Source: Minisyncoccota bacterium
Lineage (GTDB): Bacteria; Patescibacteriota; Minisyncoccia; Phycocordibacterales; UBA2100
Reading direction: 5' to 3'
Assembly (NCBI GenBank): GCA_965267345.1
Contig: OZ253947.1
Coordinates: 398,665-462,664, forward strand
Length of the DNA: 64,000 nucleotides
The position numbers were made by a program, and so were the translations under genes. A model generated the notes under the pieces. That model had not been told where the DNA came from. It made no database searches and was given only the letters and a program-made list of their open reading frames with translations. Below, piece by piece: positions 15,669 to 24,631 of the stretch (position 1 is the stretch's first letter; every line of letters begins with the position of its first letter).

Positions 15669-15686
15669 AGCTACCTACCCCATACG

Positions 15687-15720
15687 AAAAAACCCGCGCG
15701 GCGAACGTGCGGGTTTTTTG
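15687..15720. terminator. Bidirectional terminator between convergent trxB and the 15743..16582 gene
   Basis: aaaaaa cccgcgcg gcgaa cgtgcggg tttttt. Confidence 0.6.
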
Positions 15721-15742
15721 TTTTCGTAAATGAAGTGTCACC

Positions 15743-16582
15743 CTATGCACTGTAACGCATGCGTGTGTAGAGCATCCATGCTCCGACTACCGATGCGAGA
15801 AGTGTTGCAATCAGGACACTAACGTAGGCAGCGTCATTGGTGCCGGTGTAGGGCACTTGTGAGAGCGATACCGTGTTGTAGGTCGCCTGTGGGCCGTACC
15901 CGTACCCCGTGTTCATATATGGTGACGTGTAGTTGTACGGTGCGTAGGTGTGCATGTAGCTGGTCGGTACCACATCAGCGCTACATGTGCGTATCGTACC
16001 ATTACCCCACTCTGCAGTCATGGTGTATGTCTCAGGAACGGTACTCGCAGGGACAATGCGCGATCCCTCACGGCTCACTGTGCCAATGCCGTGGTCAATC
16101 CAGACACGGTCAGCGTTGAGCGCCTTCCATGAGAGTACTGCGGTACCACCCTGCGTGACGTAGTCAGGGCTCACTGAGAGTGAACACTGCTCATCGTAGG
16201 TGTGATTGGTGTTGTACAACCACGGCTGGGTGAGGTGTGGGTACGATGACACGGGATGTGCCACTGCAGTACAGGTGGTGCTGCCGGCGTCGCCGACTGC
16301 AGTAAGGGTGTACACCGTAAGCTGATTTGGGTACACCACAGTTGAGTCCGCGTCGCCAACAATACCGAGCGTGGTAATATGCACGCTTCGCGCATTCGTT
16401 GCCTTCCATGAAAGCGTCGTCCCGCCGTTGTTGTCAGGCTGGATGATCGTATTAAAGACACACGTTGGCGCCGGTGCTGCCTCTGATGCCGTTGGCATTG
16501 CGGTGACACCGAATGCAACAAACAATACCGCAACGACAACGCCGCGCGTGAGATGAGTAAAGCGATTCATAGTGTTGTTCAT
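15743..16582 (-). CDS. Secreted/surface protein with two tandem Ig-like beta-sandwich repeats and a C-terminal TM anchor
   Basis: N-terminal signal peptide. Two internally repeated ~85-aa modules (GGTTLSWKATNARSV... and GGTAVLSWKALNADRV...). C-terminal hydrophobic helix plus a basic tail (VLIATLLASVVGAWMLYTRMRYSA). Confidence 0.5.
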   Translation of the reverse strand: MNNTMNRFTHLTRGVVVAVLFVAFGVTAMPTASEAAPAPTCVFNTIIQPDNNGGTTLSWKATNARSVHITTLGIVGDADSTVVYPNQLTVYTLTAVGDAGSTTCTAVAHPVSSYPHLTQPWLYNTNHTYDEQCSLSVSPDYVTQGGTAVLSWKALNADRVWIDHGIGTVSREGSRIVPASTVPETYTMTAEWGNGTIRTCSADVVPTSYMHTYAPYNYTSPYMNTGYGYGPQATYNTVSLSQVPYTGTNDAAYVSVLIATLLASVVGAWMLYTRMRYSA

Positions 16583-16728
16583 ATTAATAACAAAGGCTCT
16601 TCGTCATAAAAGAGCCATATTCCTACACACTGAATGTGTACTACTCCTAAGAGCAGTGCACAACAGATTTTGTGATTATAATACACTATGAAGCAGTATG
16701 TCAATGGTTAGACCGGACACCTCATGCT

Positions 16729-16803
16729 CTGGTGCGCGATGCAAGAATTGAACTTGCGACCTCTTCGATGTCAACGAAGCGCTCTACCACTGAGCTAATC
16801 GCG
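16729..16803 (-). tRNA. tRNA-Val (anticodon GAC), CCA encoded
   Basis: Cloverleaf GCGCGAT.TA.GCTCAGTGGTAGAGC..CTTCG TTGACAT CGAAG..GGTCGCAAGTTCAATTCTTGC ATCGCGC A CCA. Confidence 0.88.
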
Positions 16804-16841
16804 CATGCGAGGGCGTATAGTAGCGTGACCCTTCCCCTACT

Positions 16842-17342
16842 TCAAGTGTGTTTTGGAGCAAAGTGTCGTCGGATGAGGTGTTGGATCCCGGCAATGACAA
16901 AGATCGCAACGATGTAGGCAATGAGGAGTGTGAGAAATGAGTACGGCGGTCGGTGCATCACACCAAGAATGGTCGCACCCCACCATGACGTAAATGACAC
17001 TGCGGCACCGAGCCACAGTGGCACCCAGCGTTTAGTAAGCGCAATGGCATTTGCCACAATAGCCACAAACATGATGTCTTTAACCTGAATTTTCGCACTG
17101 GTGATCACCCAGTCATTCCCCTGCGCCAGATGCCACCAGACGAGTGCGAGCCCTGAGAGAATGATGAGCGCCATACCCACGCGAATGGTCGTGTAGTTTG
17201 CGTGCATGAGCGCACGCTCGCTCGAGTCCACCTTGCCGTCGCGCAGTGCCTGAATAATCTGCACTTCGGCAATGGTAGCTCCTCCAACACCGAGAATAGT
17301 GCCGGCAATATGTCCGAATACCAGTAGTGTGTGTAGGTCCAT
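16842..17342 (-). CDS. Hypothetical polytopic membrane protein
   Basis: About four predicted TM helices. I chose the start at MDLHTLLVFGHIAG; the ORF extends to 17453. GC is lower than in core genes. Confidence 0.45.
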   Translation of the reverse strand: MDLHTLLVFGHIAGTILGVGGATIAEVQIIQALRDGKVDSSERALMHANYTTIRVGMALIILSGLALVWWHLAQGNDWVITSAKIQVKDIMFVAIVANAIALTKRWVPLWLGAAVSFTSWWGATILGVMHRPPYSFLTLLIAYIVAIFVIAGIQHLIRRHFAPKHT

Positions 17343-17418
17343 ACGGATATTGTACACGGTTATGACAACACCACGCGTGCCAGTGTGCATTACTGTTTTG
17401 AGTTGATATACTCGCACT

Positions 17419-18270
17419 ATGCGCGAATCATTATCGAAATCGTACGATACCATAGGTGAGAAAATCGATGAGAAACTGGCAACACTGCCTCCTGAAATTG
17501 CGGAACAATGGGAGCAGAAGCATGGCCATCTCCCCGCCCAAGAACAGCTCGACGATTTATCACTTTTTTTGCAACGGCGCCAAAATGCACTACGTCACGA
17601 ACACTCCATCAACCAGAAGCCTGAACGCATCGAAACGCTCCACCTCCAGCCTCTGGCGATCGCACAGGTACTCAAAAATATCGAGCAAGGTGACTACGCA
17701 GAACTCGGTGCTGGGCGTGCTGGGCGTGTTATCGCATCGGTGCGTCAACCTGATGTATGCTATAAAATAATGTTCCCGACGGACAGGACGCCACCGGAGA
17801 CAAACGAAATTGGAAAAGAAACCGATCTACAGGATACAATCAGTGAACTCGGTGAGATGCACGGAACTCGTGTACCGAAAGTCTTCTACTTCATCAAAGA
17901 TGGAGACACGCGCGCAATTGCAATGGAACGACTTGACGCAGTACCGCTTCAGGCAGCCCTTGACGGCACTGAAGCGTTTCCTGAGACGTTCGACCCCGAA
18001 CTATTTCTACAGGCACTCTCGCGCTACATTCGCGCACTGAATGAAAAAGGCTTTTATCATCGAGACCTACATGCAGGGAACATTATGATCGACAATGAAA
18101 CGGGTATGCCACGTGTTATTGATTTCGGCTCTGCCACGTTTACTCAGTTTCCAGACGAAGCGTATAGAAAGCGTGTCGTGAAAGGTGGACAAGAAGTAAA
18201 TATTGTGTTAAAATCCGACGTCAGAAGTCTTGAGCTTTTGCAGAACAAAATCCGTAAACGGTTTGAGTAA
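17419..18270 (+). CDS. Atypical eukaryotic-like protein kinase-fold protein
   Basis: Gly-rich loop ELGAGRAGRVIA, beta3 Lys in VCYKIMF, catalytic loop YHRDLHAGNIMID and a DFG motif (VIDFGSA). ~46% GC. Confidence 0.6.
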   Translation: MRESLSKSYDTIGEKIDEKLATLPPEIAEQWEQKHGHLPAQEQLDDLSLFLQRRQNALRHEHSINQKPERIETLHLQPLAIAQVLKNIEQGDYAELGAGRAGRVIASVRQPDVCYKIMFPTDRTPPETNEIGKETDLQDTISELGEMHGTRVPKVFYFIKDGDTRAIAMERLDAVPLQAALDGTEAFPETFDPELFLQALSRYIRALNEKGFYHRDLHAGNIMIDNETGMPRVIDFGSATFTQFPDEAYRKRVVKGGQEVNIVLKSDVRSLELLQNKIRKRFE

Positions 18271-18289
18271 CTAACAGGAGTGCGTCGTC

Positions 18290-18508
18290 ATGGAAATGAC
18301 CAAAACGTTTCTGAAAAAAGCCAAGAAAGCATGCCGCGAGCTGAGCGAAGATCGGCTCCACGTTCCTCTGGAGGACATGGGCGGCTACTTTGTTGCAAAG
18401 AAAAAGACTTCTCTTCCCGAAGGAGCGAACATCATCGCAGAGGAACATGATAATGGCGAAAGCATTGTTATTTACTACTGCGATGAGTGCCCGAACGGGA
18501 CCGACTAA
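18290..18508 (+). CDS. Small hypothetical protein (72 aa), apparently co-transcribed with the kinase-like gene
   Basis: AGGAG lies 9 nt upstream of the ATG. A strong terminator follows. Confidence 0.45.
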   Translation: MEMTKTFLKKAKKACRELSEDRLHVPLEDMGGYFVAKKKTSLPEGANIIAEEHDNGESIVIYYCDECPNGTD

Positions 18509-18512
18509 TATA

Positions 18513-18547
18513 GCGAGCAGATTCCCCCGACTCTGCTCGCTTTTTTA
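18513..18547 (+). terminator. Rho-independent terminator after the kinase/small-ORF pair
   Basis: gcgagcaga ttcccccgac tctgctcgc followed by ttttttat. Confidence 0.65.
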
Positions 18548-18767
18548 TATCTTTGCAAAACGCGTCACTTCCTCCCCATCTACCATCACCATGCGCGAAA
18601 GCGCACCGGTGCACTTACGCGCGAAGAAGTTTCTGAATGTGATGATCAACGGAAGCGACCTCGAACATCCCACCACGACACATTGATAGCACTTATCGCT
18701 GAGCAGCCCGACCATCAGGACGATGCAGAATCATCCAGTCGACGCAAATGATGATAAAGTCCTCAGC

Positions 18768-20687
18768 TTACTGAGTATTTAGTTCTTGCTGAGCGTCTGG
18801 CCAACCCATTTCCGCAAGAAATCGAGACCGCCTCTTTTGCCAACCGCGATAGTCTTTTGCCGTCGATAGAACAAGATGCTGCTTGCAGCGCGTAATGGCT
18901 ACAAAGCAATTCCGGCGCTCTTCCTCCATCTCGGGTGAAGCATCTCCCTTCTTGACGCTCTGCCAGGACGGCATTTCATCTTCCGCTAATCCAACAAGGT
19001 AGACTGTATCGAATTCGAGCCCCTTGGACGAGTGGACGGTCAAGAGGCTGACGGCATCTGGATCTTTAGGAGGTTCTTTTGAACGCAGTGCCAATCCTTG
19101 TACGACCTCCGCCAAATCGGGATTTGGCCCGATTTCCGATCGAATTTCCCGAAGACAAGCGTCCCATGCTCGCTGGTCTTCCACGACGTCGCTCACCGTA
19201 CCATCCTCGATAACCTCAGTTTTCAATAAGAACGGGATGGCCCGTTTGATCACATCGCTCCATCTGCTTCTTGAGTCGATTAACTCGTGAGTAAATTGCG
19301 CAAGATGCTGTGGCGTTGATTCCGGCTCATGTCCAACGACCTCACTCCAATGCTCCAAGAAGCTTTGGCTCGAAGCCTCAGACTCGGCAATCAAAATGGT
19401 TGGATCGAGCTCCATGTCCGCGAAGCGGTTGGCGGCATTCACTAGCGTTGTGAAGACTCTTTTGTTTCGAGGCCGAACAGCTTGATCGAGACAGGACTGA
19501 AGCCACACGAATTGAGGTGACGCAAAGCTATCGCGCCGCTGTGCTATTGCGGCCTTTACGCCTTTGGCCTTCAGCGCGGTGAGTACCGGTTCAAGCAGCG
19601 CCCGGGTTCGGCCGATTACGGCAATTTCTCCATGATCTTCGGCAGAGACTTTAGATATTTCCGTAGCAACAAATTCGCTTTCGTCAGTGCTGTTCTCAAA
19701 TTCGTGGAAGAATATTGTGTCAGGTGCGGCTTCTCGAGTCGGCACAATTTTCTTCTTGTCGGGTGTGCGCTGAGTATTGTGGGAGACAAGGCGGTTAGCG
19801 ATGGAAACAACCTCAGCTGGGCAGCGACGATTTTCCACAAGTTGAATCAGCTCCGGCTTAAAATCATCACGGAACCGCTCAATCTGACGGTAGCTCGCTC
19901 CCGCCCACTGAAAAATTATTTGATCGTCATCAGCGACACACATGACGTTGGAGAATTCCGCGCCTGTCATGTAGTGAAGAAGCCAATACTGGGCTCTCGT
20001 CGTGTCCTGAAATTCGTCAACCATCCAATAGGGATATGTACGGCGGATGCGCTTCGCCACCGCCGGCACCTGGGCAAGTAGCCGGCAGGTCTCCAAAATC
20101 AAGCCGTTAAAATCGAGTGCGTTCTCGGCGCGTAAAGCTTCCTCATACAGTTTGTAGACAGCGGGCATGCGTGGGTTTCGTATGTGTTTGGCCGCTTTAT
20201 CCGGGACTACCAACCGTGCCTTCATTTCATCGATAGCGCGAAGAAAGTGGATGTCCTCAGCGACAAAGTCGCTCCCACTCGCCGCGGCTGCCTCAAGCGC
20301 ATCAGCGAGCAGTGCCTCTCGCTCACGCTCAAGATCGAAAATCCCGAAGTCAGGTTCAATACCGATGTGGGAGCCATGTTGCCGCAAAATTTGAGTGCAA
20401 AAAGCGTGAAATGTTCCAATGAACGTGCGGTCGTCTACGGAACCTGGAACCATTTGTTCCACACGTTCGGCCATTTCGGCGGCAGCTTTCGTCGTGAACG
20501 TAAGCGCGAGGACACGAAAACGCTTTTGTGGAGATTCTTCCAGAAGGCGCGCAAGCCTGGTCGTTAATACACGCGTCTTGCCGGATCCTGGTCCAGCCAA
20601 AACGAGAGCAGCGCCATCGCGCCACATAACGGCTTCGCGCTGGATGTCGCTTAGGCTATCGATTGCATCTTGAAATTCGCTGCTCAT
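18768..20687 (-). CDS. gajB: UvrD/PcrA/Rep-like superfamily-1 DNA helicase (Gabija GajB-like)
   Basis: Motif I AGPGSGKT, motif Ia TFTTKAAAEM, motif II YWMVDEFQDTT, motif VI VHSSKGLEFDTVYLVG. The start overlaps the stop of the upstream OLD-family gene by 4 nt (ATGA). Confidence 0.7.
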   Translation of the reverse strand: MSSEFQDAIDSLSDIQREAVMWRDGAALVLAGPGSGKTRVLTTRLARLLEESPQKRFRVLALTFTTKAAAEMAERVEQMVPGSVDDRTFIGTFHAFCTQILRQHGSHIGIEPDFGIFDLEREREALLADALEAAAASGSDFVAEDIHFLRAIDEMKARLVVPDKAAKHIRNPRMPAVYKLYEEALRAENALDFNGLILETCRLLAQVPAVAKRIRRTYPYWMVDEFQDTTRAQYWLLHYMTGAEFSNVMCVADDDQIIFQWAGASYRQIERFRDDFKPELIQLVENRRCPAEVVSIANRLVSHNTQRTPDKKKIVPTREAAPDTIFFHEFENSTDESEFVATEISKVSAEDHGEIAVIGRTRALLEPVLTALKAKGVKAAIAQRRDSFASPQFVWLQSCLDQAVRPRNKRVFTTLVNAANRFADMELDPTILIAESEASSQSFLEHWSEVVGHEPESTPQHLAQFTHELIDSRSRWSDVIKRAIPFLLKTEVIEDGTVSDVVEDQRAWDACLREIRSEIGPNPDLAEVVQGLALRSKEPPKDPDAVSLLTVHSSKGLEFDTVYLVGLAEDEMPSWQSVKKGDASPEMEEERRNCFVAITRCKQHLVLSTAKDYRGWQKRRSRFLAEMGWPDAQQELNTQ

Positions 20688-22603
20688 GACCCTCTTGTTT
20701 TGAGCCGTTCGATCAAGTCCACGAAAGGCTTCGGCATTTGAGCGGCGAGCTTTGCATCCGCTGCAACCATAGGAGCGAGCTCTGTCATGTAAGCCACCTT
20801 TCTATTTTTCAGGTGGCGCTTGAGCGTATCCAAGTCACACGATTTTGCCGAAGACCCGATGAGATCACAGAGTATGTCACGGAGGAGAGCTTCATGACCG
20901 TCTGCGATGAGTTGCTCCTCCAAATTGTGTGGCGGCGTAAGTGAGGTAACTCGCTCATCGACCTCTGCTTGTGTGAAGCCCCGCTTCACTATCTGCTTAC
21001 AAAATCTCGCACCTTCATCGTCACCATCGACAATCATGTCCCAAGGAATTTCGAAAGCATCCGCGAGAGCTGCATAGATGGCCGGGCTACCGTTGTTCTG
21101 AAAATCAATGACAGCGACGCCGTGCTGATCGAGATCGTATCCCAGGGCCATACCCAATGCATGAAGAAGTAGGTAGTCAGACTGGCCCTCCGCCAATACC
21201 CAGCGACGAGCAAAAAAGATCTCTCCCCGCATACGACGCCCCAGTAAGGCAAGGTCAGCCTCATCCTCCTTCGATATAAGCAACCGACATTCATGTCGAA
21301 ATTCAGCAACAACCTTTTCCATACTGCTGGCGGATGTCGTGGATTTCCAACAGGCTGCCAAATCGGCGGCGAATTTCTCATCGAACCAAAGCGTAGCTGA
21401 CACGGTCCCTGATTTTTCGTCCTTCTTGATCCAATCCAACCGGCGACCAGCTACCAGGTTCTTTACTTCCTCCGTCCACGGAAGATCAGAAACAACGCGT
21501 CGCTTCAGCTTGCTCACTGAAGTGGAACCGTCCACAAATCGTACGTATCGAAGATTGTGTAGCGGTACATTCTGCACAAAATAGGGAGAATGCGTGGTGG
21601 CAATCGACTGTCCCGGTAGCTCACATATGCGTCTCCAGAGCGTGCGTGCTGCCTGTGGGTGCAAGTGAACCTCTGGCTCTTCAATTGCAAAAATTGGCTC
21701 GGCACCCTCAGGAAGGTCACTTGCCAACGCCTGCGCAATTGCCGCCTGAAATAGAAAAATCACCGCTAAGCTTTGGAGACCTTGTCCATGGTGATCGAGC
21801 GGCAGCCACGGATGAAGCTCTTCATTTCGGAGAACCAGACCGGCGCGAGAGAGAAGATCCCACAAATTCAGAGGTAGCATACGGAGTCGTGCCGTGCCGG
21901 GTTTGTCTCCTGATGCTATTTCCGTCGCACGGCCGATCGTCTCCGCAATCTCAGCAAATCGCTTATCAGAGCTAAGAAGCTTCTCATCAAGCTCATCAAG
22001 TTTCTCTTTGACTTCCATCTCTAGTGCTGGGGGCACATTCATCGATTTGAGCAGCCCACCCCAGTAGCGAGATCGTGCAGTGAATTCCGCATCGGCGTCC
22101 CGCAAGGCACCAAGCCAGTAGAAAAGTACGTAGTTGTAGAAGCCAGAAAGATTGATGGAGCGCCGTCTCACCCCCATCGGCTTGCCATCTGGATTCAGAA
22201 ACTCCCACGCCGGCTTGAATGCTTCGTCATCCGGATCCCAGGAGTAGGAGATTGCTATGGCTACCTGGTTCAACCCGTCGGTTGTGAGCGTCACGATGTC
22301 ATCCAGATCTGCGACCATGTCCTCAGGCCACTCATCTGGCTCGGTCTCTTCAAAGACAATTTCTATTCGGGATCCTGGGGCAGAGCGAGGGTCATGCTTC
22401 TTCGGATCCGCTATGTGAATGTCATCTTCGGTGAAGCCTGTACCGCGTTGGCCCCATCGACGAGACAACGCGATTCTGAGCGCCTCCAAAATTGCTGACT
22501 TCCCGGAGTTATTCGCCCCAATTAAAACAGTCGTATCGTCCAACTCGAGGGTGAGTTGGGCGATCGATCGGAAATTCTCAATGTGTAACCGTCGGATCTT
22601 CAT
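20684..22603 (-). CDS. gajA: OLD-family ATP-dependent endonuclease: ABC-type ATPase plus C-terminal TOPRIM (Gabija GajA-like, class 2 OLD)
   Basis: Walker A GANNSGKS, ABC-like signature IFAIEEPEVHLHP, TOPRIM Glu in VLAEGQSDY and DxD in IVDGDDEG. 639 aa. Partnered with the UvrD helicase downstream. Confidence 0.72.
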   Translation of the reverse strand: MKIRRLHIENFRSIAQLTLELDDTTVLIGANNSGKSAILEALRIALSRRWGQRGTGFTEDDIHIADPKKHDPRSAPGSRIEIVFEETEPDEWPEDMVADLDDIVTLTTDGLNQVAIAISYSWDPDDEAFKPAWEFLNPDGKPMGVRRRSINLSGFYNYVLFYWLGALRDADAEFTARSRYWGGLLKSMNVPPALEMEVKEKLDELDEKLLSSDKRFAEIAETIGRATEIASGDKPGTARLRMLPLNLWDLLSRAGLVLRNEELHPWLPLDHHGQGLQSLAVIFLFQAAIAQALASDLPEGAEPIFAIEEPEVHLHPQAARTLWRRICELPGQSIATTHSPYFVQNVPLHNLRYVRFVDGSTSVSKLKRRVVSDLPWTEEVKNLVAGRRLDWIKKDEKSGTVSATLWFDEKFAADLAACWKSTTSASSMEKVVAEFRHECRLLISKEDEADLALLGRRMRGEIFFARRWVLAEGQSDYLLLHALGMALGYDLDQHGVAVIDFQNNGSPAIYAALADAFEIPWDMIVDGDDEGARFCKQIVKRGFTQAEVDERVTSLTPPHNLEEQLIADGHEALLRDILCDLIGSSAKSCDLDTLKRHLKNRKVAYMTELAPMVAADAKLAAQMPKPFVDLIERLKTRGS

Positions 22604-22614
22604 GCGTCACGCTC

Positions 22615-22935
22615 ATGCAAAGGAGCGAGAATTCATTGTATCATGAGCATGCAGATCAAATGCGTACAAACAAATCGAAATACGATATTACGGGAGCTGC
22701 AAATAAGCGCTTGCCGGACCGCAATCCGGAGTTCCCGTTCATACGGGAGCTGTGCGCCCATCTCTCAGAGGAAGAAATCCAAGAGGCCAATGAGAGCTTC
22801 TGGCGTTACACCGAGATCGTACGGGGCATCTTTGACCGCCAGGAACGCGATCGGAAATTTGCTCAGGATGCGGCCGAAATACGGCCGGACGAGGTAGATG
22901 AAGAAGCCTCGAACCATAGTGGCGAATTTTCGTGA
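22615..22935 (+). CDS. Hypothetical small acidic protein, divergent from the Gabija-like operon. Start uncertain; possibly the internal Met at ~22660.
   Basis: The ORF track gives 106 aa. No recognisable motifs. Ends 13 nt before a perfect 10-bp stem-loop. Confidence 0.3.
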   Translation: MQRSENSLYHEHADQMRTNKSKYDITGAANKRLPDRNPEFPFIRELCAHLSEEEIQEANESFWRYTEIVRGIFDRQERDRKFAQDAAEIRPDEVDEEASNHSGEFS

Positions 22936-22948
22936 TCGCAGAACGTAA

Positions 22949-22972
22949 CAGAGCGCTCAATAGAGCGCTCTG
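22949..22972. other. Perfect 10-bp-stem palindrome cagagcgctc-aata-gagcgctctg between the small ORF and tRNA-Glu
   Basis: Read from the sequence. No T-tract follows. Candidate terminator or processing hairpin at the island edge. Confidence 0.5.
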
Positions 22973-23009
22973 GTGCGTCAAGGCACAAAAACTTGATGGA
23001 TTTAATGGC

Positions 23010-23084
23010 TGGTGACCCTACGGGGAATCGAACCCCGATTTCCACCGTGAAAGGGTGGCGTCCTAGCCGTTAGACGATAGGGCC
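23010..23084 (-). tRNA. tRNA-Glu (anticodon TTC), CCA encoded
   Basis: Revcomp GGCCCTA TC GTCTAACGGCTAGGAC GCCACC CTTTCAC GGTGG AAATC GGGGTTCGATTCCCC GTAGGGTC ACCA. Confidence 0.88.
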
Positions 23085-23150
23085 GTACGTGCGGCGCTAC
23101 TATACCGCACTTTTTGGGCATGGGCAAAAAAGTATGCTACCGTTTGTCGC

Positions 23151-23234
23151 GGAGGGTTGCCCGGAATTGGTAACGGACCGCACTCGAAATGCGGCGCGCG
23201 CAAGCGCTTGTGGGTTCGAGTCCCATGCCCTCCG
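23151..23234 (+). tRNA. tRNA-Ser (anticodon CGA), class II with a long variable arm
   Basis: GGAGGGT TG CCCGGAATTGGTAACGGAC CGCA CTCGAAA TGCG, variable arm GCGCGCGCAAGCGCTTG, T-arm TGGGTTCGAGTCCCA, acceptor GCCCTCC G. Closely resembles E. coli serU. Confidence 0.85.
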
Positions 23235-23361
23235 CTCGTTTGTACGTAACTATCTACACGTCCATACCTGCGATTCGAAAAGATGTTTTACTGCACGAGG
23301 ACCGCCCTTACGCAAACCTCTGATACAAGGTCGGTCCTTGTTCTGCTTGCAGGGTGTTTCG

Positions 23362-23387
23362 TACCTACTGAGATATCTCAGTAGGTA
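23362..23387. promoter_or_regulatory. 26-bp perfect palindrome (tacctactgagat|atctcagtaggta) just upstream of a TGTTATACT extended -10 in front of tsaD
   Basis: Perfect dyad symmetry, read from the sequence. Located 25 nt upstream of TGtTATACT at 23412-23420. Confidence 0.4.
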
Positions 23388-23458
23388 TACCAAAGTTAAT
23401 TCAAAAGTTGATGTTATACTACCCTCGCCATGACGTCTGTGCTACCGTACATCGGTAT

Positions 23459-24631
23459 ATGGCAACGATACTAGCGGTTGAGACATCGTGTGACGAGACA
23501 GGCATTGCGATTATTGACACTGAACGCACTGACGAACAAGTGCGCGTGCACGTGCGTGCCGATGCACTGCTCTCACAGGCGGTGCTGCACGCCGAATACG
23601 GCGGTGTGTATCCCACACTCGCCAAACGAGAACACGCAAAAAATCTCGGACCACTCTTCACTGACGCACTGACAAAAGCAGGCCTCTTCATTCCTGCGCA
23701 GGAGTCGATCATGTCACAAGAGAAAATTGGAGAGATTAAAGAATTACTTGAGCGCGAGCCTGAACTATTCGTACACCTTGCCGTACTCCTTGCGAAGCTC
23801 GAAAAGCCACCAATTGACGCCGTCGCGGTCACGAATGGCCCCGGGCTGGAACCAGCACTATGGGTTGGTATCAATTTTGCGCGAGCACTGGGTACCGTGT
23901 GGGATATTCCCGTCGTACCCATCAACCACATGGAAGGGCACATTATCGCGGCCGTTGCCGAGCCGGTAAACGAAACAGAATTCACCATTTCACACCCCAC
24001 CTTCCCTGCCCTAGCACTGCTTATCTCAGGCGGCCACACCGAATTGGTGCTCATGCGCTCGTGGCTTTCATATGAGCGGATTGGCAGTACACGCGATGAC
24101 GCGGCGGGTGAGGCATTTGATAAATCGGCACGACTCATCGGCTTGCCGTACCCTGGTGGTCCGGAAATATCGAAGCTCGCAGAAGCAGCGCGCGCCGAAG
24201 GTCTTGAGCAGCCATTTTCACTTCCACGGCCCATGATCGCCACCAACGACTGTGACTTCTCGTTCTCAGGACTGAAGACGGCTGTCCGTACACTGGTTAC
24301 TGAGGCTGGCACCCTTGATGAAACACAAAAGAAGCAGTTTGCACGTGAACTGGAAGATGCGATTAGCGATGTCTTGGTTGCCAAAACACGCCGTGCAATT
24401 GAAACCTACGGTGTCGCATCACTAATCGTCAGCGGTGGTGTATCGGCAAATACCCACATTCGTACGCAACTTGCCGCTCTCGCTGAAGAATATAACGCAA
24501 CGCTCTTCCTTCCCTCGCCCGACTTGGCAACTGACAATGGGCGCATGATTGCCTTTGCGGCATCAATTCACGACGCTGACTCAGCGCGCGAAAAAGATAT
24601 TCGTGCTGAGGGAAATCTACAACTAGCGTAA
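23459..24631 (+). CDS. tsaD: tRNA N6-adenosine threonylcarbamoyltransferase TsaD (Kae1/YgjD family)
   Basis: MATILAVETSCDETGIAIID, HMEGHI and GGVSANT motifs. The ORF extends upstream to 23408, but the conserved N-terminus begins at 23459. Confidence 0.85.
   Translation: MATILAVETSCDETGIAIIDTERTDEQVRVHVRADALLSQAVLHAEYGGVYPTLAKREHAKNLGPLFTDALTKAGLFIPAQESIMSQEKIGEIKELLEREPELFVHLAVLLAKLEKPPIDAVAVTNGPGLEPALWVGINFARALGTVWDIPVVPINHMEGHIIAAVAEPVNETEFTISHPTFPALALLISGGHTELVLMRSWLSYERIGSTRDDAAGEAFDKSARLIGLPYPGGPEISKLAEAARAEGLEQPFSLPRPMIATNDCDFSFSGLKTAVRTLVTEAGTLDETQKKQFARELEDAISDVLVAKTRRAIETYGVASLIVSGGVSANTHIRTQLAALAEEYNATLFLPSPDLATDNGRMIAFAASIHDADSAREKDIRAEGNLQLA

What the first reader, a model, noticed from the sequence alone, without database searches (positions are those of the whole stretch)
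18768..22603. Gabija-like two-gene defence module: OLD-family ATPase-TOPRIM nuclease coupled to a UvrD-type helicase
The 639-aa protein at 20684-22603 carries Walker A (GANNSGKS), the ABC/OLD signature IFAIEEPEVHLHP and a TOPRIM with Glu (LAEGQSD) plus DxD (DGDDEG). Its stop overlaps by ATGA the start of a 639-aa SF1 helicase with UvrD motifs I, Ia, II and VI. An OLD nuclease with an adjacent UvrD/PcrA-like helicase is the class 2 OLD / Gabija (GajA-GajB) architecture. The pair sits in a lower-GC stretch of about 6 kb bounded by tRNA-Val and tRNA-Glu/tRNA-Ser. If the host is Patescibacteria/CPR-like, as other genes in the window suggest, that lineage is generally described as poor in innate defence systems. 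The GajB-like protein is about 140 aa longer than the Bacillus GajB I have in mind.
Basis: partly seen in the sequence, partly recalled or inferred. Interest (0 to 1): 0.75.

Follow-up and report, generated by a model that had tools for sequence, protein, structure and literature searches.

The report
Ordinary Gabija defence operon in CPR bacterium
Two overlapping genes form a typical Gabija anti-phage defence pair (an OLD-type ATPase-nuclease and a UvrD-like helicase), inserted beside a tRNA gene in a small Patescibacteria-type genome; it is real, but Gabija is a known system that has already been recorded in this lineage.

Summary
PADLOC models match both end to end (GajA 768 bits, GajB 797 bits). 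Pfam finds AAA_15, AAA_21 and OLD-like TOPRIM in one, and UvrD-helicase plus UvrD_C in the other. The helicase scores far below all housekeeping PcrA/UvrD/Rep cut-offs.

Three syntenic relatives share the FtsA-FtsZ-TrxB...tRNA-Glu/tRNA-Ser-TsaD-ValRS backbone but lack both genes, so the pair was inserted beside tRNA-Glu. The closest homolog (71%) lies in a non-CPR defence island. The tandem arrangement recurs in all seven other contexts examined, two of them other Patescibacteria.

The GC dip is negligible (z about -0.4). The idea that CPR lack such systems is outdated: a 2025 survey lists Gabija in about 1.5% of Paceibacteria genomes.

This subtype is distant from the studied Bacillus system. 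Its GajB keeps a full UvrD-size core, which explains the extra 140 aa, but it lacks the GIG motif. Verdict: a correctly identified new member of a known kind, of low interest.

The parts
20684..22603 (-). gajA: class 2 OLD-family ATPase-nuclease, 639 aa. ABC-type ATPase with Walker A G29-S36 (K35), signature-like HHGQGLQSL 271-279, Walker B/D-loop 304-316 and H-loop TTHSPYF 336-342. A subfamily-specific alpha/beta module spans about 357-455. TOPRIM residues are E472, G505 and D526xD528, followed by a C-terminal helical bundle at 561-638.
   Evidence: E472 aligns with the Bacillus GajA E379 motif. The Bacillus active-site residues come from PMC10781630.
18768..20687 (-). gajB: SF1A UvrD/PcrA/Rep-like helicase, 639 aa, with all motifs (Q, I, Ia, II DEFQD, III, IV, V, VI) intact. 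It has a full-size 1A/1B/2A/2B core, no GIG motif, and a shortened post-motif-VI hairpin.
20684..20687 (-). ATGA overlap of the gajA stop and the gajB start, implying translational coupling. An AAGAGGG Shine-Dalgarno-like sequence lies just upstream.
   Evidence: The same 4-bp overlap occurs in L081, L090, L094 and L095.
22604..23009 (-). 406-bp region upstream of gajA, between gajA and the 3' end of tRNA-Glu. It holds a possible extended -10 promoter (TGaTACAAT at 22643-22635, inferred by eye only) and the divergent orphan ORF orf106 (22615-22935, + strand).
   Evidence: The consensus scan found no promoter here. orf106 has a coding-like GC1/2/3 pattern but no homolog in any fetched locus, Pfam or PHROGs.
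22943..22978 (.). Strong palindromic hairpin just downstream of tRNA-Glu and orf106. It is a possible terminator or insulator at the edge of the insertion.
   Evidence: (I9) and 78: the 85-nt fold is -29.8 kcal/mol, z -5.1, and 0 of 200 shuffles fold as well.
23010..23084 (-). tRNA-Glu(UUC). Its 3' end is the right-hand boundary of the insertion. It is conserved next to tRNA-Ser and TsaD in relatives.
18548..18767 (-). Non-coding stretch downstream of gajB, containing a palindrome at 18593-18622. This is the likely end of the gajAB transcript and the left edge of the insertion.
   Evidence: I1; z -2.6.
18512..18547 (+). Intrinsic terminator (hairpin followed by TTTTTT) that ends the convergent kin283-orf72 unit. 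It marks the left neighbour of the Gabija insert.
   Evidence: I4; -18.7 kcal/mol, z -6.0.
16730..16804 (-). tRNA-Val(GAC), the outer landmark of the hypervariable slot between tRNA-Val and tRNA-Glu. It is not part of the system.

Best explanation
This is a horizontally acquired two-gene Gabija (class 2 OLD) anti-phage operon. About 4.5 kb (roughly 18548-23009) was inserted next to the 3' end of tRNA-Glu, in a hypervariable slot of an otherwise syntenic chromosome of a Parcubacteria-type Patescibacteria.

Shown here: both genes are intact and translationally coupled. GajA has a complete ABC-ATPase site and a complete Toprim two-metal site (E472, G505, D526xD528). GajB has every SF1A ATPase and translocase motif. 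The pair is conserved as a unit across phyla. Close relatives of the host lack it at this locus.

Inferred from the Bacillus cereus system and other class 2 OLD enzymes (PMC10781630, PMC10568477, PMC8136825): GajA oligomerises through the helical insert in its ATPase domain and GajB docks onto it. The ATPase domain senses nucleotide status. During phage infection the Toprim nuclease nicks or cleaves DNA. GajB's DNA-dependent NTPase or translocase activity helps activate or amplify the response, which stops phage replication, possibly at the cost of the infected cell.

This subtype is distant from the Bacillus one, and its GajB is UvrD-sized. Sequence specificity, nucleotide inhibition and stoichiometry may therefore differ.
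For: - PADLOC models match end to end: GajA PDLC00062 at 767.6 bits and GajB PDLC00114 at 797.2 bits.
- Pfam finds AAA_15, DUF2813, AAA_21 and OLD-like_TOPRIM in one protein, and UvrD-helicase plus UvrD_C in the other.
- Catalytic residues are invariant across the subfamily.
- E472 maps onto Bacillus GajA E379. The E-to-DxD spacing is 54 residues here and 53 in Bacillus.
- The GajA model (pLDDT 79) matches TsOLD and BcGajA best. The GajB model (pLDDT 86.6) matches UvrD, PcrA and Rep at TM 0.72-0.75.
- Tandem GajA plus a 630-642-aa helicase occurs in L081, L089, L090/91, L092/93, L094 and L095.
- 46 of the top 120 GajA hits share a contig length with a top-120 GajB hit.
- Homolog contexts are defence or mobile: integrase, TIR and transposase in L081; RM and HigBA in L092; Abi_C and a serine recombinase in L090; a plasmid in L095.
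- Relatives L084, L085 and L087 (FtsZ 77%, TsaD 65-67% identical) have the same backbone and the same three tRNAs, but no OLD or UvrD gene.
- The nearest GajA (71%) and GajB (66.5%) are in a non-CPR genome.
Against: - There is no functional evidence of any kind: no expression data, nuclease assay or phage challenge.
- Similarity to the only mechanistically dissected Gabija is weak. BcGajA matches at E 5e-6 over the N-terminus only, and BcGajB at 1.5e-10, so the mechanism is extrapolated.
- No integrase, att repeat or tRNA fragment marks the insertion.
- Composition is not foreign. Acquisition therefore rests on synteny and on the phyletic pattern.
- The consensus scan found no clear promoter.
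- The C-terminal helical region after the DxD is 111 aa, shorter than the 144 aa in BcGajA and BpOLD. The class-2 Toprim insert is therefore not clearly met.
Confidence: 0.85

Rival explanations
1. The pair has a housekeeping DNA-repair role. The helicase would be the genome's UvrD/PcrA, and the ATPase a RecF/SbcC/Rad50-like repair partner.
For: GajB is more similar to PcrA and UvrD (2e-69; profile 1.9e-98) than to Bacillus GajB, and it has a full UvrD-size fold. No other UvrD-like gene is present in the 64-kb window. The rest of the genome was not available.
Against: It scores far below the NCBIfam equivalog cut-offs: PcrA 332 against 911, UvrD 275 against 1144, Rep 293 against 951. It is absent at this locus in three syntenic relatives. 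The closest homologs are in unrelated phyla and always next to GajA. The UvrD GIG motif is deleted. The ATPase has a TOPRIM nuclease domain, and RecF and Rad50 match only its first 45-64 residues.
Confidence: 0.04
2. A class 1 (stand-alone) OLD nuclease happens to sit beside an unrelated helicase, so this is not a two-component system.
For: The best PDB sequence match for GajA is the class 1 Thermus OLD, 6p74 (6e-18; profile 1.2e-27), ahead of Bacillus GajA. The region after the DxD (111 aa) is closer in length to class 1 (94 aa) than to class 2 (144 aa).
Against: The ATGA overlap implies co-translation. GajA and GajB identities to homologs run in parallel: 71 and 66.5% in L081, 61 and 60% in Uhrbacteria, 56 and 57% in the Patescibacteria contig. 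Class is defined by gene context (PMC10568477).
Confidence: 0.03
3. The pair is part of a larger multi-gene defence island that also includes the adjacent Ser/Thr-kinase-like gene (17419-18270) and the orphan ORFs. Gabija would then work with, or be regulated by, these neighbours.
For: kin283 gives weak PADLOC hits to mad6 (6.5e-11) and PD-T4-6 kinases (1.3e-8), and a PHROG Ser/Thr kinase hit. It has the lowest GC in the neighbourhood (0.484, z -2.6). Gabija homologs sit among other defence genes elsewhere.
Against: The kinase hits cover only the generic catalytic core. A kinase-like gene (32% identical) occupies the same slot in relative L084, which has no Gabija. kin283, orf72 and orf106 have no counterparts in any other Gabija locus. 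kin283-orf72 is a separate convergent unit with its own terminator.
Confidence: 0.06
4. The segment is an assembly or binning artefact: non-CPR DNA chimerically joined into a CPR contig.
For: The nearest homologs (66-71%) are on contigs that look non-CPR. The source is an uncultured metagenome assembly.
Against: The segment is internal, with syntenic CPR genes and conserved tRNAs on both sides within one contiguous sequence. GC and codon usage match the host. The identical proteins are recorded on one 644,490-bp contig. Other Patescibacteria carry the same subtype.
Confidence: 0.02

Closest known systems
Bacillus cereus VD045 Gabija (GajA-GajB; PDB 8SM3, 8U7I, 8J4T, 8JQB)
   Same: Two-gene operon with an OLD-family ABC-ATPase plus Toprim nuclease followed by an SF1A UvrD-like protein. 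The Toprim triad is the same (E, G, DxD), with E-to-DxD spacing of 54 against 53 residues. The ATPase domain carries a helical insert. The full-length fold matches at Foldseek E about 1e-20.
   Different: Sequence similarity is very low: phmmer E 5e-6 over the first 69 residues for GajA, and 1.5e-10 over about 80 residues for GajB. GajA here is 61 aa longer. It has an extra, confidently modelled alpha/beta module of about 90 aa before the Toprim, and a helical tail about 33 aa shorter. GajB here is about 140 aa longer and superposes on full UvrD, PcrA and Rep; BcGajB is not among the top 50 fold matches.
Class 2 OLD nucleases of Burkholderia pseudomallei and Xanthomonas campestris (PDB 6NK8, 6NJV) with their tandem helicases
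   Same: [quoted passage not shown] The Toprim core aligns at profile E 3e-8 over residues 445-538. The host is also diderm-type and non-Bacillus.
   Different: Only the Toprim region is solved. Those proteins have 144 residues after the DxD, against 111 here. The reported biochemistry is non-specific endo- and exonuclease activity, ATP hydrolysis, and cleavage unaffected by ATP (PMC10568477). It is unknown whether that or the Bacillus behaviour applies here.
Thermus scotoductus class 1 OLD (PDB 6P74)
   Same: It is the best PDB sequence match to GajA across the ATPase, signature/Walker B and Toprim regions (6e-18; profile 1.2e-27) and the best fold match.
   Different: TsOLD is a stand-alone gene with no helicase partner. 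It lacks the roughly 67 extra residues between the ATPase and the Toprim.
Housekeeping UvrD, PcrA and Rep helicases (PDB 2IS1, 1PJR, 4C2U, 1UAA)
   Same: The profile aligns end to end (7-627 against E. coli UvrD 5-636). TM is 0.72-0.75. All helicase motifs and all four subdomains are present.
   Different: It scores below every NCBIfam equivalog cut-off. An 8-residue deletion removes the 2B 'RGIG' motif. The separation-pin hairpin is about 4 residues shorter, and there is no C-terminal extension. The gene is coupled to an OLD nuclease and is absent from syntenic relatives.
Gabija loci already recorded in Patescibacteria (aquifer defensome survey PMC12259885; loci L090 and L092 here)
   Same: L090 and L092 carry the same subtype (GajA 56-61% identical), in ultrasmall CPR genomes, next to other defence or mobile genes. 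L090 also lies near a tRNA-Glu.
   Different: The window copy has no recombinase, RM or toxin-antitoxin neighbours. Its nearest relative is non-CPR (71%) rather than these CPR copies, which suggests a separate acquisition.

Membership tests
Gabija / class 2 OLD system | GajA is an OLD-family protein with an N-terminal ABC-type ATPase (Walker A, Walker B, H-loop) | tested here: met
   Pfam AAA_15 6.1e-34 and AAA_21 3.7e-20. G29, K35, E308-E311, H313-P316 and H338 are invariant in 18 homologs. The fold matches TsOLD and BcGajA.
Gabija / class 2 OLD system | C-terminal Toprim nuclease domain with a complete active site (invariant Glu, Gly, DxD) | tested here: met
   PF20469 OLD-like_TOPRIM 1.3e-13 over 463-528. 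E472 aligns to BcGajA E379. D526 is invariant; D528 and G505 are at least 90% conserved. The defining residues come from PMC10781630.
Gabija / class 2 OLD system | [quoted passage not shown] | tested here: met
   ATGA overlap. UvrD-helicase 1.5e-66 and UvrD_C 9e-33. The adjacency is conserved in seven other contexts. The definition comes from PMC10568477.
Gabija / class 2 OLD system | Both proteins match curated Gabija profile models (PADLOC) | tested here: met
   GajA PDLC00062 scores 767.6 bits over 1-635/639. GajB PDLC00114 scores 797.2 bits over 2-631/635. The next-best non-Gabija models score much lower: AriA 117, Old 116, RTasHel 255 bits.
Gabija / class 2 OLD system | Class-2-specific helical insert that enlarges the Toprim region by about 50 aa relative to class 1 | tested here: inconclusive
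   There are 111 residues after the DxD, against 94 in TsOLD and 144 in BpOLD, XccOLD and BcGajA, counted from the alignments. The model shows a helical bundle at 561-638. I made no residue-level structural superposition.
Gabija / class 2 OLD system | GajA tetramer plus four GajB in a 4:4 supramolecular complex | not testable with these tools
   Only monomer modelling was available. The putative dimerisation insert (169-274) is modelled at pLDDT below 50.
Gabija / class 2 OLD system | Protection against phage that requires both genes | not testable with these tools
   This needs an experiment. No member of this subtype is known to me to have been tested.
Housekeeping UvrD/PcrA/Rep | Score above the NCBIfam equivalog cut-off | tested here: not met
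   PcrA 332 against 911.2; Rep 293 against 951; UvrD 275 against 1144; DNA helicase II 284 against 965.
Housekeeping UvrD/PcrA/Rep | Conserved presence and synteny in related genomes | tested here: not met
   No tblastn hit to GajB or GajA in L082, L084, L085 or L087, although the flanks are conserved.
Housekeeping UvrD/PcrA/Rep | GIG motif in subdomain 2B, needed for dsDNA binding and unwinding | tested here: not met
   The profile alignment to D. radiodurans UvrD shows an 8-residue gap over 'GRPRRGIG'. The window sequence there is NAANRFAD, at 417-424. The role of the motif comes from PMC10681800.
Class 1 OLD (stand-alone) | A single gene, not associated with a partner helicase | tested here: not met
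   It is always followed by the helicase.
Class 3 OLD (retron Eco8), PARIS AriA and Septu PtuA | Adjacent reverse transcriptase and ncRNA, AriB, or PtuB HNH partner | tested here: not met
   Rfam finds only tRNAs in the window. The neighbours are GajB and orphan ORFs. NCBIfam retron_eff_Eco8 scores 50 against 250, and PtuA 48 against 500.

The most novel reading that the evidence does not exclude
This widespread, untested Gabija subtype (PADLOC GajA PDLC00062 with GajB PDLC00114) may work differently from the Bacillus paradigm. It has a UvrD-sized GajB with a complete 2B domain, and an extra alpha/beta module in GajA. GajB could act as a genuine translocase or helicase that feeds DNA to the OLD nuclease, rather than as a helicase-dead NTPase. 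In a nucleotide-scavenging epibiont, nucleotide sensing would then be tied to supply from the host bacterium, which would link defence to the symbiotic state.
Probability: 0.12. Interest if true: 0.45.

Novelty: new member of a known kind. Interest (0 to 1): 0.15.

Why it matters
It matters little beyond correct annotation. It is one more documented case of an ultrasmall, reduced-genome Patescibacteria spending about 0.6% of a roughly 0.64-Mb genome on an innate defence operon acquired by horizontal transfer into a tRNA-flanked hypervariable slot. That fits recent surveys, which find CPR defence density per Mb to be high rather than low.

The modestly useful point concerns the subtype. It is common across phyla and is far from the only mechanistically studied Gabija. 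It has a UvrD-complete GajB, so it would be a reasonable second model system for testing how general the Bacillus mechanism is.

Tried and rejected
- att sites: I looked for direct repeats and tRNA-fragment duplicates that would mark an integrase-mediated insertion. None was found, only a 17-nt inverted chance match inside kin283.
- Composition: I tested GC, GC3 and codon usage as evidence of foreign origin. None is significant.
- Own contig: I tried to retrieve the window's own contig by exact-protein look-up. It is not on record, although identical proteins (P0001, P0249, P0127) are in the protein database on a 644,490-bp contig.
The host could therefore not be named to genus. The source names for closer TsaD relatives were truncated.
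- Other scans: the metagenome scan with GajA gave one locus. The viral-contig scan and the phage-record search gave nothing, so there is no evidence that phages carry this subtype.
- Flanking ORFs: I checked whether orf106, orf72 and the kinase belong to the system. They have no homologs in other Gabija loci, Pfam or PHROGs.
- Shared hotspot: I considered that the Uhrbacteria locus L092 shares an FtsZ...TsaD hotspot with the window. Its FtsZ-like fragment is only 29-32% identical, so I dropped this.
- Window-wide check: Pfam on ten other large ORFs found GyrA, RNR, LepA, MurJ and similar genes, but no further helicase or defence gene.

Full report
**Observation.** gajA-like is at 20684-22603(-) and gajB-like at 18768-20687(-). 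Each is 639 aa with a single terminal stop. The gajA stop and gajB start overlap as ATGA, and an AAGAGGG ribosome-binding-like sequence lies just upstream. Every quoted motif is present at the stated kind of position. tRNA-Val, tRNA-Glu and tRNA-Ser flank the region, as ARAGORN and Rfam both confirm. The one sub-claim that does not hold is the 'lower-GC stretch'. Region 16805-23009 has GC 0.517 against 0.528 window-wide. gajA and gajB have GC 0.525 and 0.527 against a gene background of 0.533 +/- 0.019, and their codon usage deviates only mildly (z -1.3 and -1.45).

**Family assignment.** Pfam places the first protein in AAA_15, DUF2813 and AAA_21, with an OLD-like_TOPRIM domain at 463-528. 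It places the second in UvrD-helicase plus UvrD_C. PADLOC models match both end to end: GajA PDLC00062 at 767.6 bits over 1-635 of 639, and GajB PDLC00114 at 797.2 bits over 2-631 of 635. Non-Gabija models score far lower. NCBIfam housekeeping equivalogs are all far below cut-off, for example PcrA at 332 against 911 and UvrD at 275 against 1144. RecF and Rad50 match only the first 45-64 residues.

**Conserved sites.** In an 18-member GajA alignment the Walker A (G29, K35), Walker B/D-loop (E308-P316), H-loop (H338) and Toprim E472 and D526 are invariant; D528 and G505 are at least 90% conserved. A profile search of the PDB aligns E472 with the 'LLIEGPSE' glutamate of Bacillus GajA. Antine et al. 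identify that glutamate as catalytic E379, alongside G409 and D432xD434 (PMC10781630). The E-to-DxD spacing is 54 residues here and 53 there. In GajB, motifs Q, I, Ia, II (DEFQD), III, IV, V and VI are invariant across 22 homologs. Both enzymes are predicted to be catalytically competent.

**Structure.** The GajA model (pLDDT 79, pTM 0.76) matches full-length Thermus OLD and Bacillus GajA at E about 1e-20, followed by the retron Eco8 OLD. Its ATPase insert at 169-274, probably the dimerisation domain, is modelled poorly. Compared with Thermus OLD it has roughly 67 extra residues between the ATPase and the Toprim, modelled confidently as a small alpha/beta module. Its helical tail after the DxD is 111 aa, against 94 in class 1 TsOLD and 144 in BpOLD and BcGajA. 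The 'class 2 Toprim insert' criterion (PMC10568477) is therefore inconclusive.

The GajB model (pLDDT 86.6, pTM 0.82) superposes on full-length UvrD, PcrA and Rep at TM 0.72-0.75 over about 650 columns. Bacillus GajB is not among the top 50 matches. The profile aligns end to end with E. coli UvrD (7-627 against 5-636). An 8-residue deletion removes the 2B 'RGIG' motif, and the hairpin after motif VI is about 4 residues shorter than in PcrA. Oh et al. reported that BcGajB lacks the GIG motif, gating helix and separation pin, and has no helicase activity (PMC10681800). This subtype sits between UvrD and BcGajB.

**The pair is a unit.** GajA homologs number in the thousands, and the top hits are 54-71% identical across phyla: Pedobacter, Acidiphilium, Rhizobiaceae, Uhrbacteria and a 'Patescibacteria group bacterium'. 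In every context examined, the OLD gene is immediately followed by a 630-642-aa UvrD-type helicase, usually with the same 4-bp overlap. These contexts are L081, L089, L090/91, L092/93, L094 and the Methylocystis plasmid locus L095. The independent GajB homolog list mirrors the GajA list: 46 of the top 120 share a contig length. The surroundings are defence or mobile. L081 has an integrase, a TIR protein and a transposase. L092 has an RM system and HigBA. L090 has Abi_C, a large serine recombinase and a tRNA-Glu. L095 is on a plasmid. No phage or viral-contig copy was found.

**Host and insertion.** Proteins identical to the window's GajA, GajB and TsaD are recorded on one 644,490-bp contig. 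TsaD relatives at 63-69% identity lie on contigs of 0.33-0.75 Mb. Named relatives are Parcubacteria or Patescibacteria. The host is therefore a Parcubacteria-type CPR bacterium, though the genus is unresolved.

Three relatives (L084, L085, L087; FtsZ about 77% and TsaD 65-67% identical) share the backbone FtsA-FtsZ-TrxB ... tRNA-Val ... tRNA-Glu/tRNA-Ser-TsaD-SKI-ValRS-PrsW-HSP20. None has an OLD or UvrD gene. In L084 the order is tRNA-Val, mem203 homolog, a 70-aa ORF, a kinase-like gene, then tRNA-Glu. In the window, orf72, gajB, gajA and orf106 lie between the kinase and tRNA-Glu. The slot between tRNA-Val and tRNA-Glu holds different, non-homologous genes in each relative.

The Gabija insert is about 4.5 kb. 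It runs from the terminator after orf72 (18512-18547, z -6.0) to the 3' end of tRNA-Glu, with a strong hairpin at 22943-22978 (z -5.1) at its right edge. No att repeat, tRNA fragment or recombinase remains. The nearest GajA (71%) and GajB (66.5%) are in a non-CPR genome rather than in the other CPR carriers (56-61%), which points to an independent horizontal acquisition.

**Mechanism (inferred).** By analogy with Bacillus Gabija and other class 2 OLD enzymes (PMC10781630, PMC10568477, PMC8136825), GajA would oligomerise and GajB would dock onto it. The ATPase domain would sense nucleotide status, and the Toprim would cut DNA by two-metal catalysis during infection. GajB's NTPase or translocase activity would contribute to activation. 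Class 2 OLDs already differ among themselves: BcGajA is a site-specific nickase inhibited by ATP, whereas BpOLD is non-specific, hydrolyses ATP and is not affected by ATP concentration. This subtype is distant from both, so specificity, nucleotide control and stoichiometry remain open.

**Novelty.** Gabija is among the commonest defence systems, estimated at about 8.5% to more than 15% of genomes. The premise that CPR lack such systems is outdated. A DefenseFinder survey of 3,004 groundwater CPR genomes found fewer systems per genome but higher density per Mb. Its source data list Gabija at a frequency of 0.0146 in Paceibacteria and 0.0121 in ABY1, including an 'RM,Gabija,SoFIC' island in a Paceibacteria genome (PMC12259885). 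Two more Patescibacteria carriers of this same subtype turned up here. Standard tools would call this locus automatically.

**Verdict.** The finding is correctly identified but ordinary: a new member of a known kind. The only mildly interesting aspect is that this widespread UvrD-complete subtype has not been studied mechanistically.

Noticed in passing
window 15669-23408; loci L082, L084, L085, L087, L090: The interval between TrxB and TsaD is a hypervariable slot studded with tRNA-Val, tRNA-Glu and tRNA-Ser, and it carries different non-homologous cargo in each relative. In L082 a large serine recombinase abuts the tRNA-Ser/tRNA-Glu pair. In L090, a different Patescibacteria, a Gabija island with Abi_C and a serine recombinase lies next to a tRNA-Glu. 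tRNA-Glu may be a recurrent integration site in this lineage.
   Followed up: partly
window 17419-18270 (+): This 283-aa Ser/Thr-kinase-like protein (Pkinase 6.4e-13) gives weak hits to the defence kinases mad6 and PD-T4-6. It has the lowest GC of the neighbourhood (0.484, z -2.6). It is only 32% identical to the kinase-like gene in the same slot of L084, and it lies in the opposite orientation. It is fast-evolving and of unknown role.
   Followed up: partly
window 22615-22935 (+) and 18290-18508 (+): Two small ORFs (106 and 72 aa) flank the Gabija pair. Both have coding-like GC1>GC3>GC2 patterns but no homolog in Pfam, PHROGs (apart from one marginal hit, E 0.002) or any fetched locus. orf106 starts 11 bp from the gajA start on the opposite strand, so the gajA promoter would have to lie inside it.
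   Followed up: partly
window 22943-22978: A near-perfect palindrome (CAGAGCGCTC-TATT-GAGCGCTCTG) within a longer stem lies just 3' of tRNA-Glu. The fold is -29.8 kcal/mol, z -5.1. Neither strand has a U-tract after it, and its function is unknown.
   Followed up: partly
window 20684-22603 (-), GajA residues about 357-455: This subfamily-specific module lies between the ATPase and the Toprim. It consists of three strands, then helices, and is modelled at pLDDT 84-96, with invariant W376, F407 and C418. It has no counterpart in Thermus OLD by alignment, and its role is unknown.
   Followed up: no
window 15743-16582 (-); L084 3599-4708 and 6821-7573; L087 4377-5264 and 7709-8530: A 279-aa predicted secreted or membrane-anchored protein with internal repeats belongs to a small paralogous family present in two or three copies in relatives (34-48% identity). 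It is probably a variable cell-surface protein of these epibionts.
   Followed up: no
window 20684-22603, 18768-20687, 23408-24631: Proteins identical to the window's GajA, GajB and TsaD are in the protein database (P0001, P0249, P0127) on one 644,490-bp contig from NCBI/ENA. Even so, the exact-sequence contig look-up returned 'not on record', so I could not retrieve the source record or its taxonomy.
   Followed up: yes
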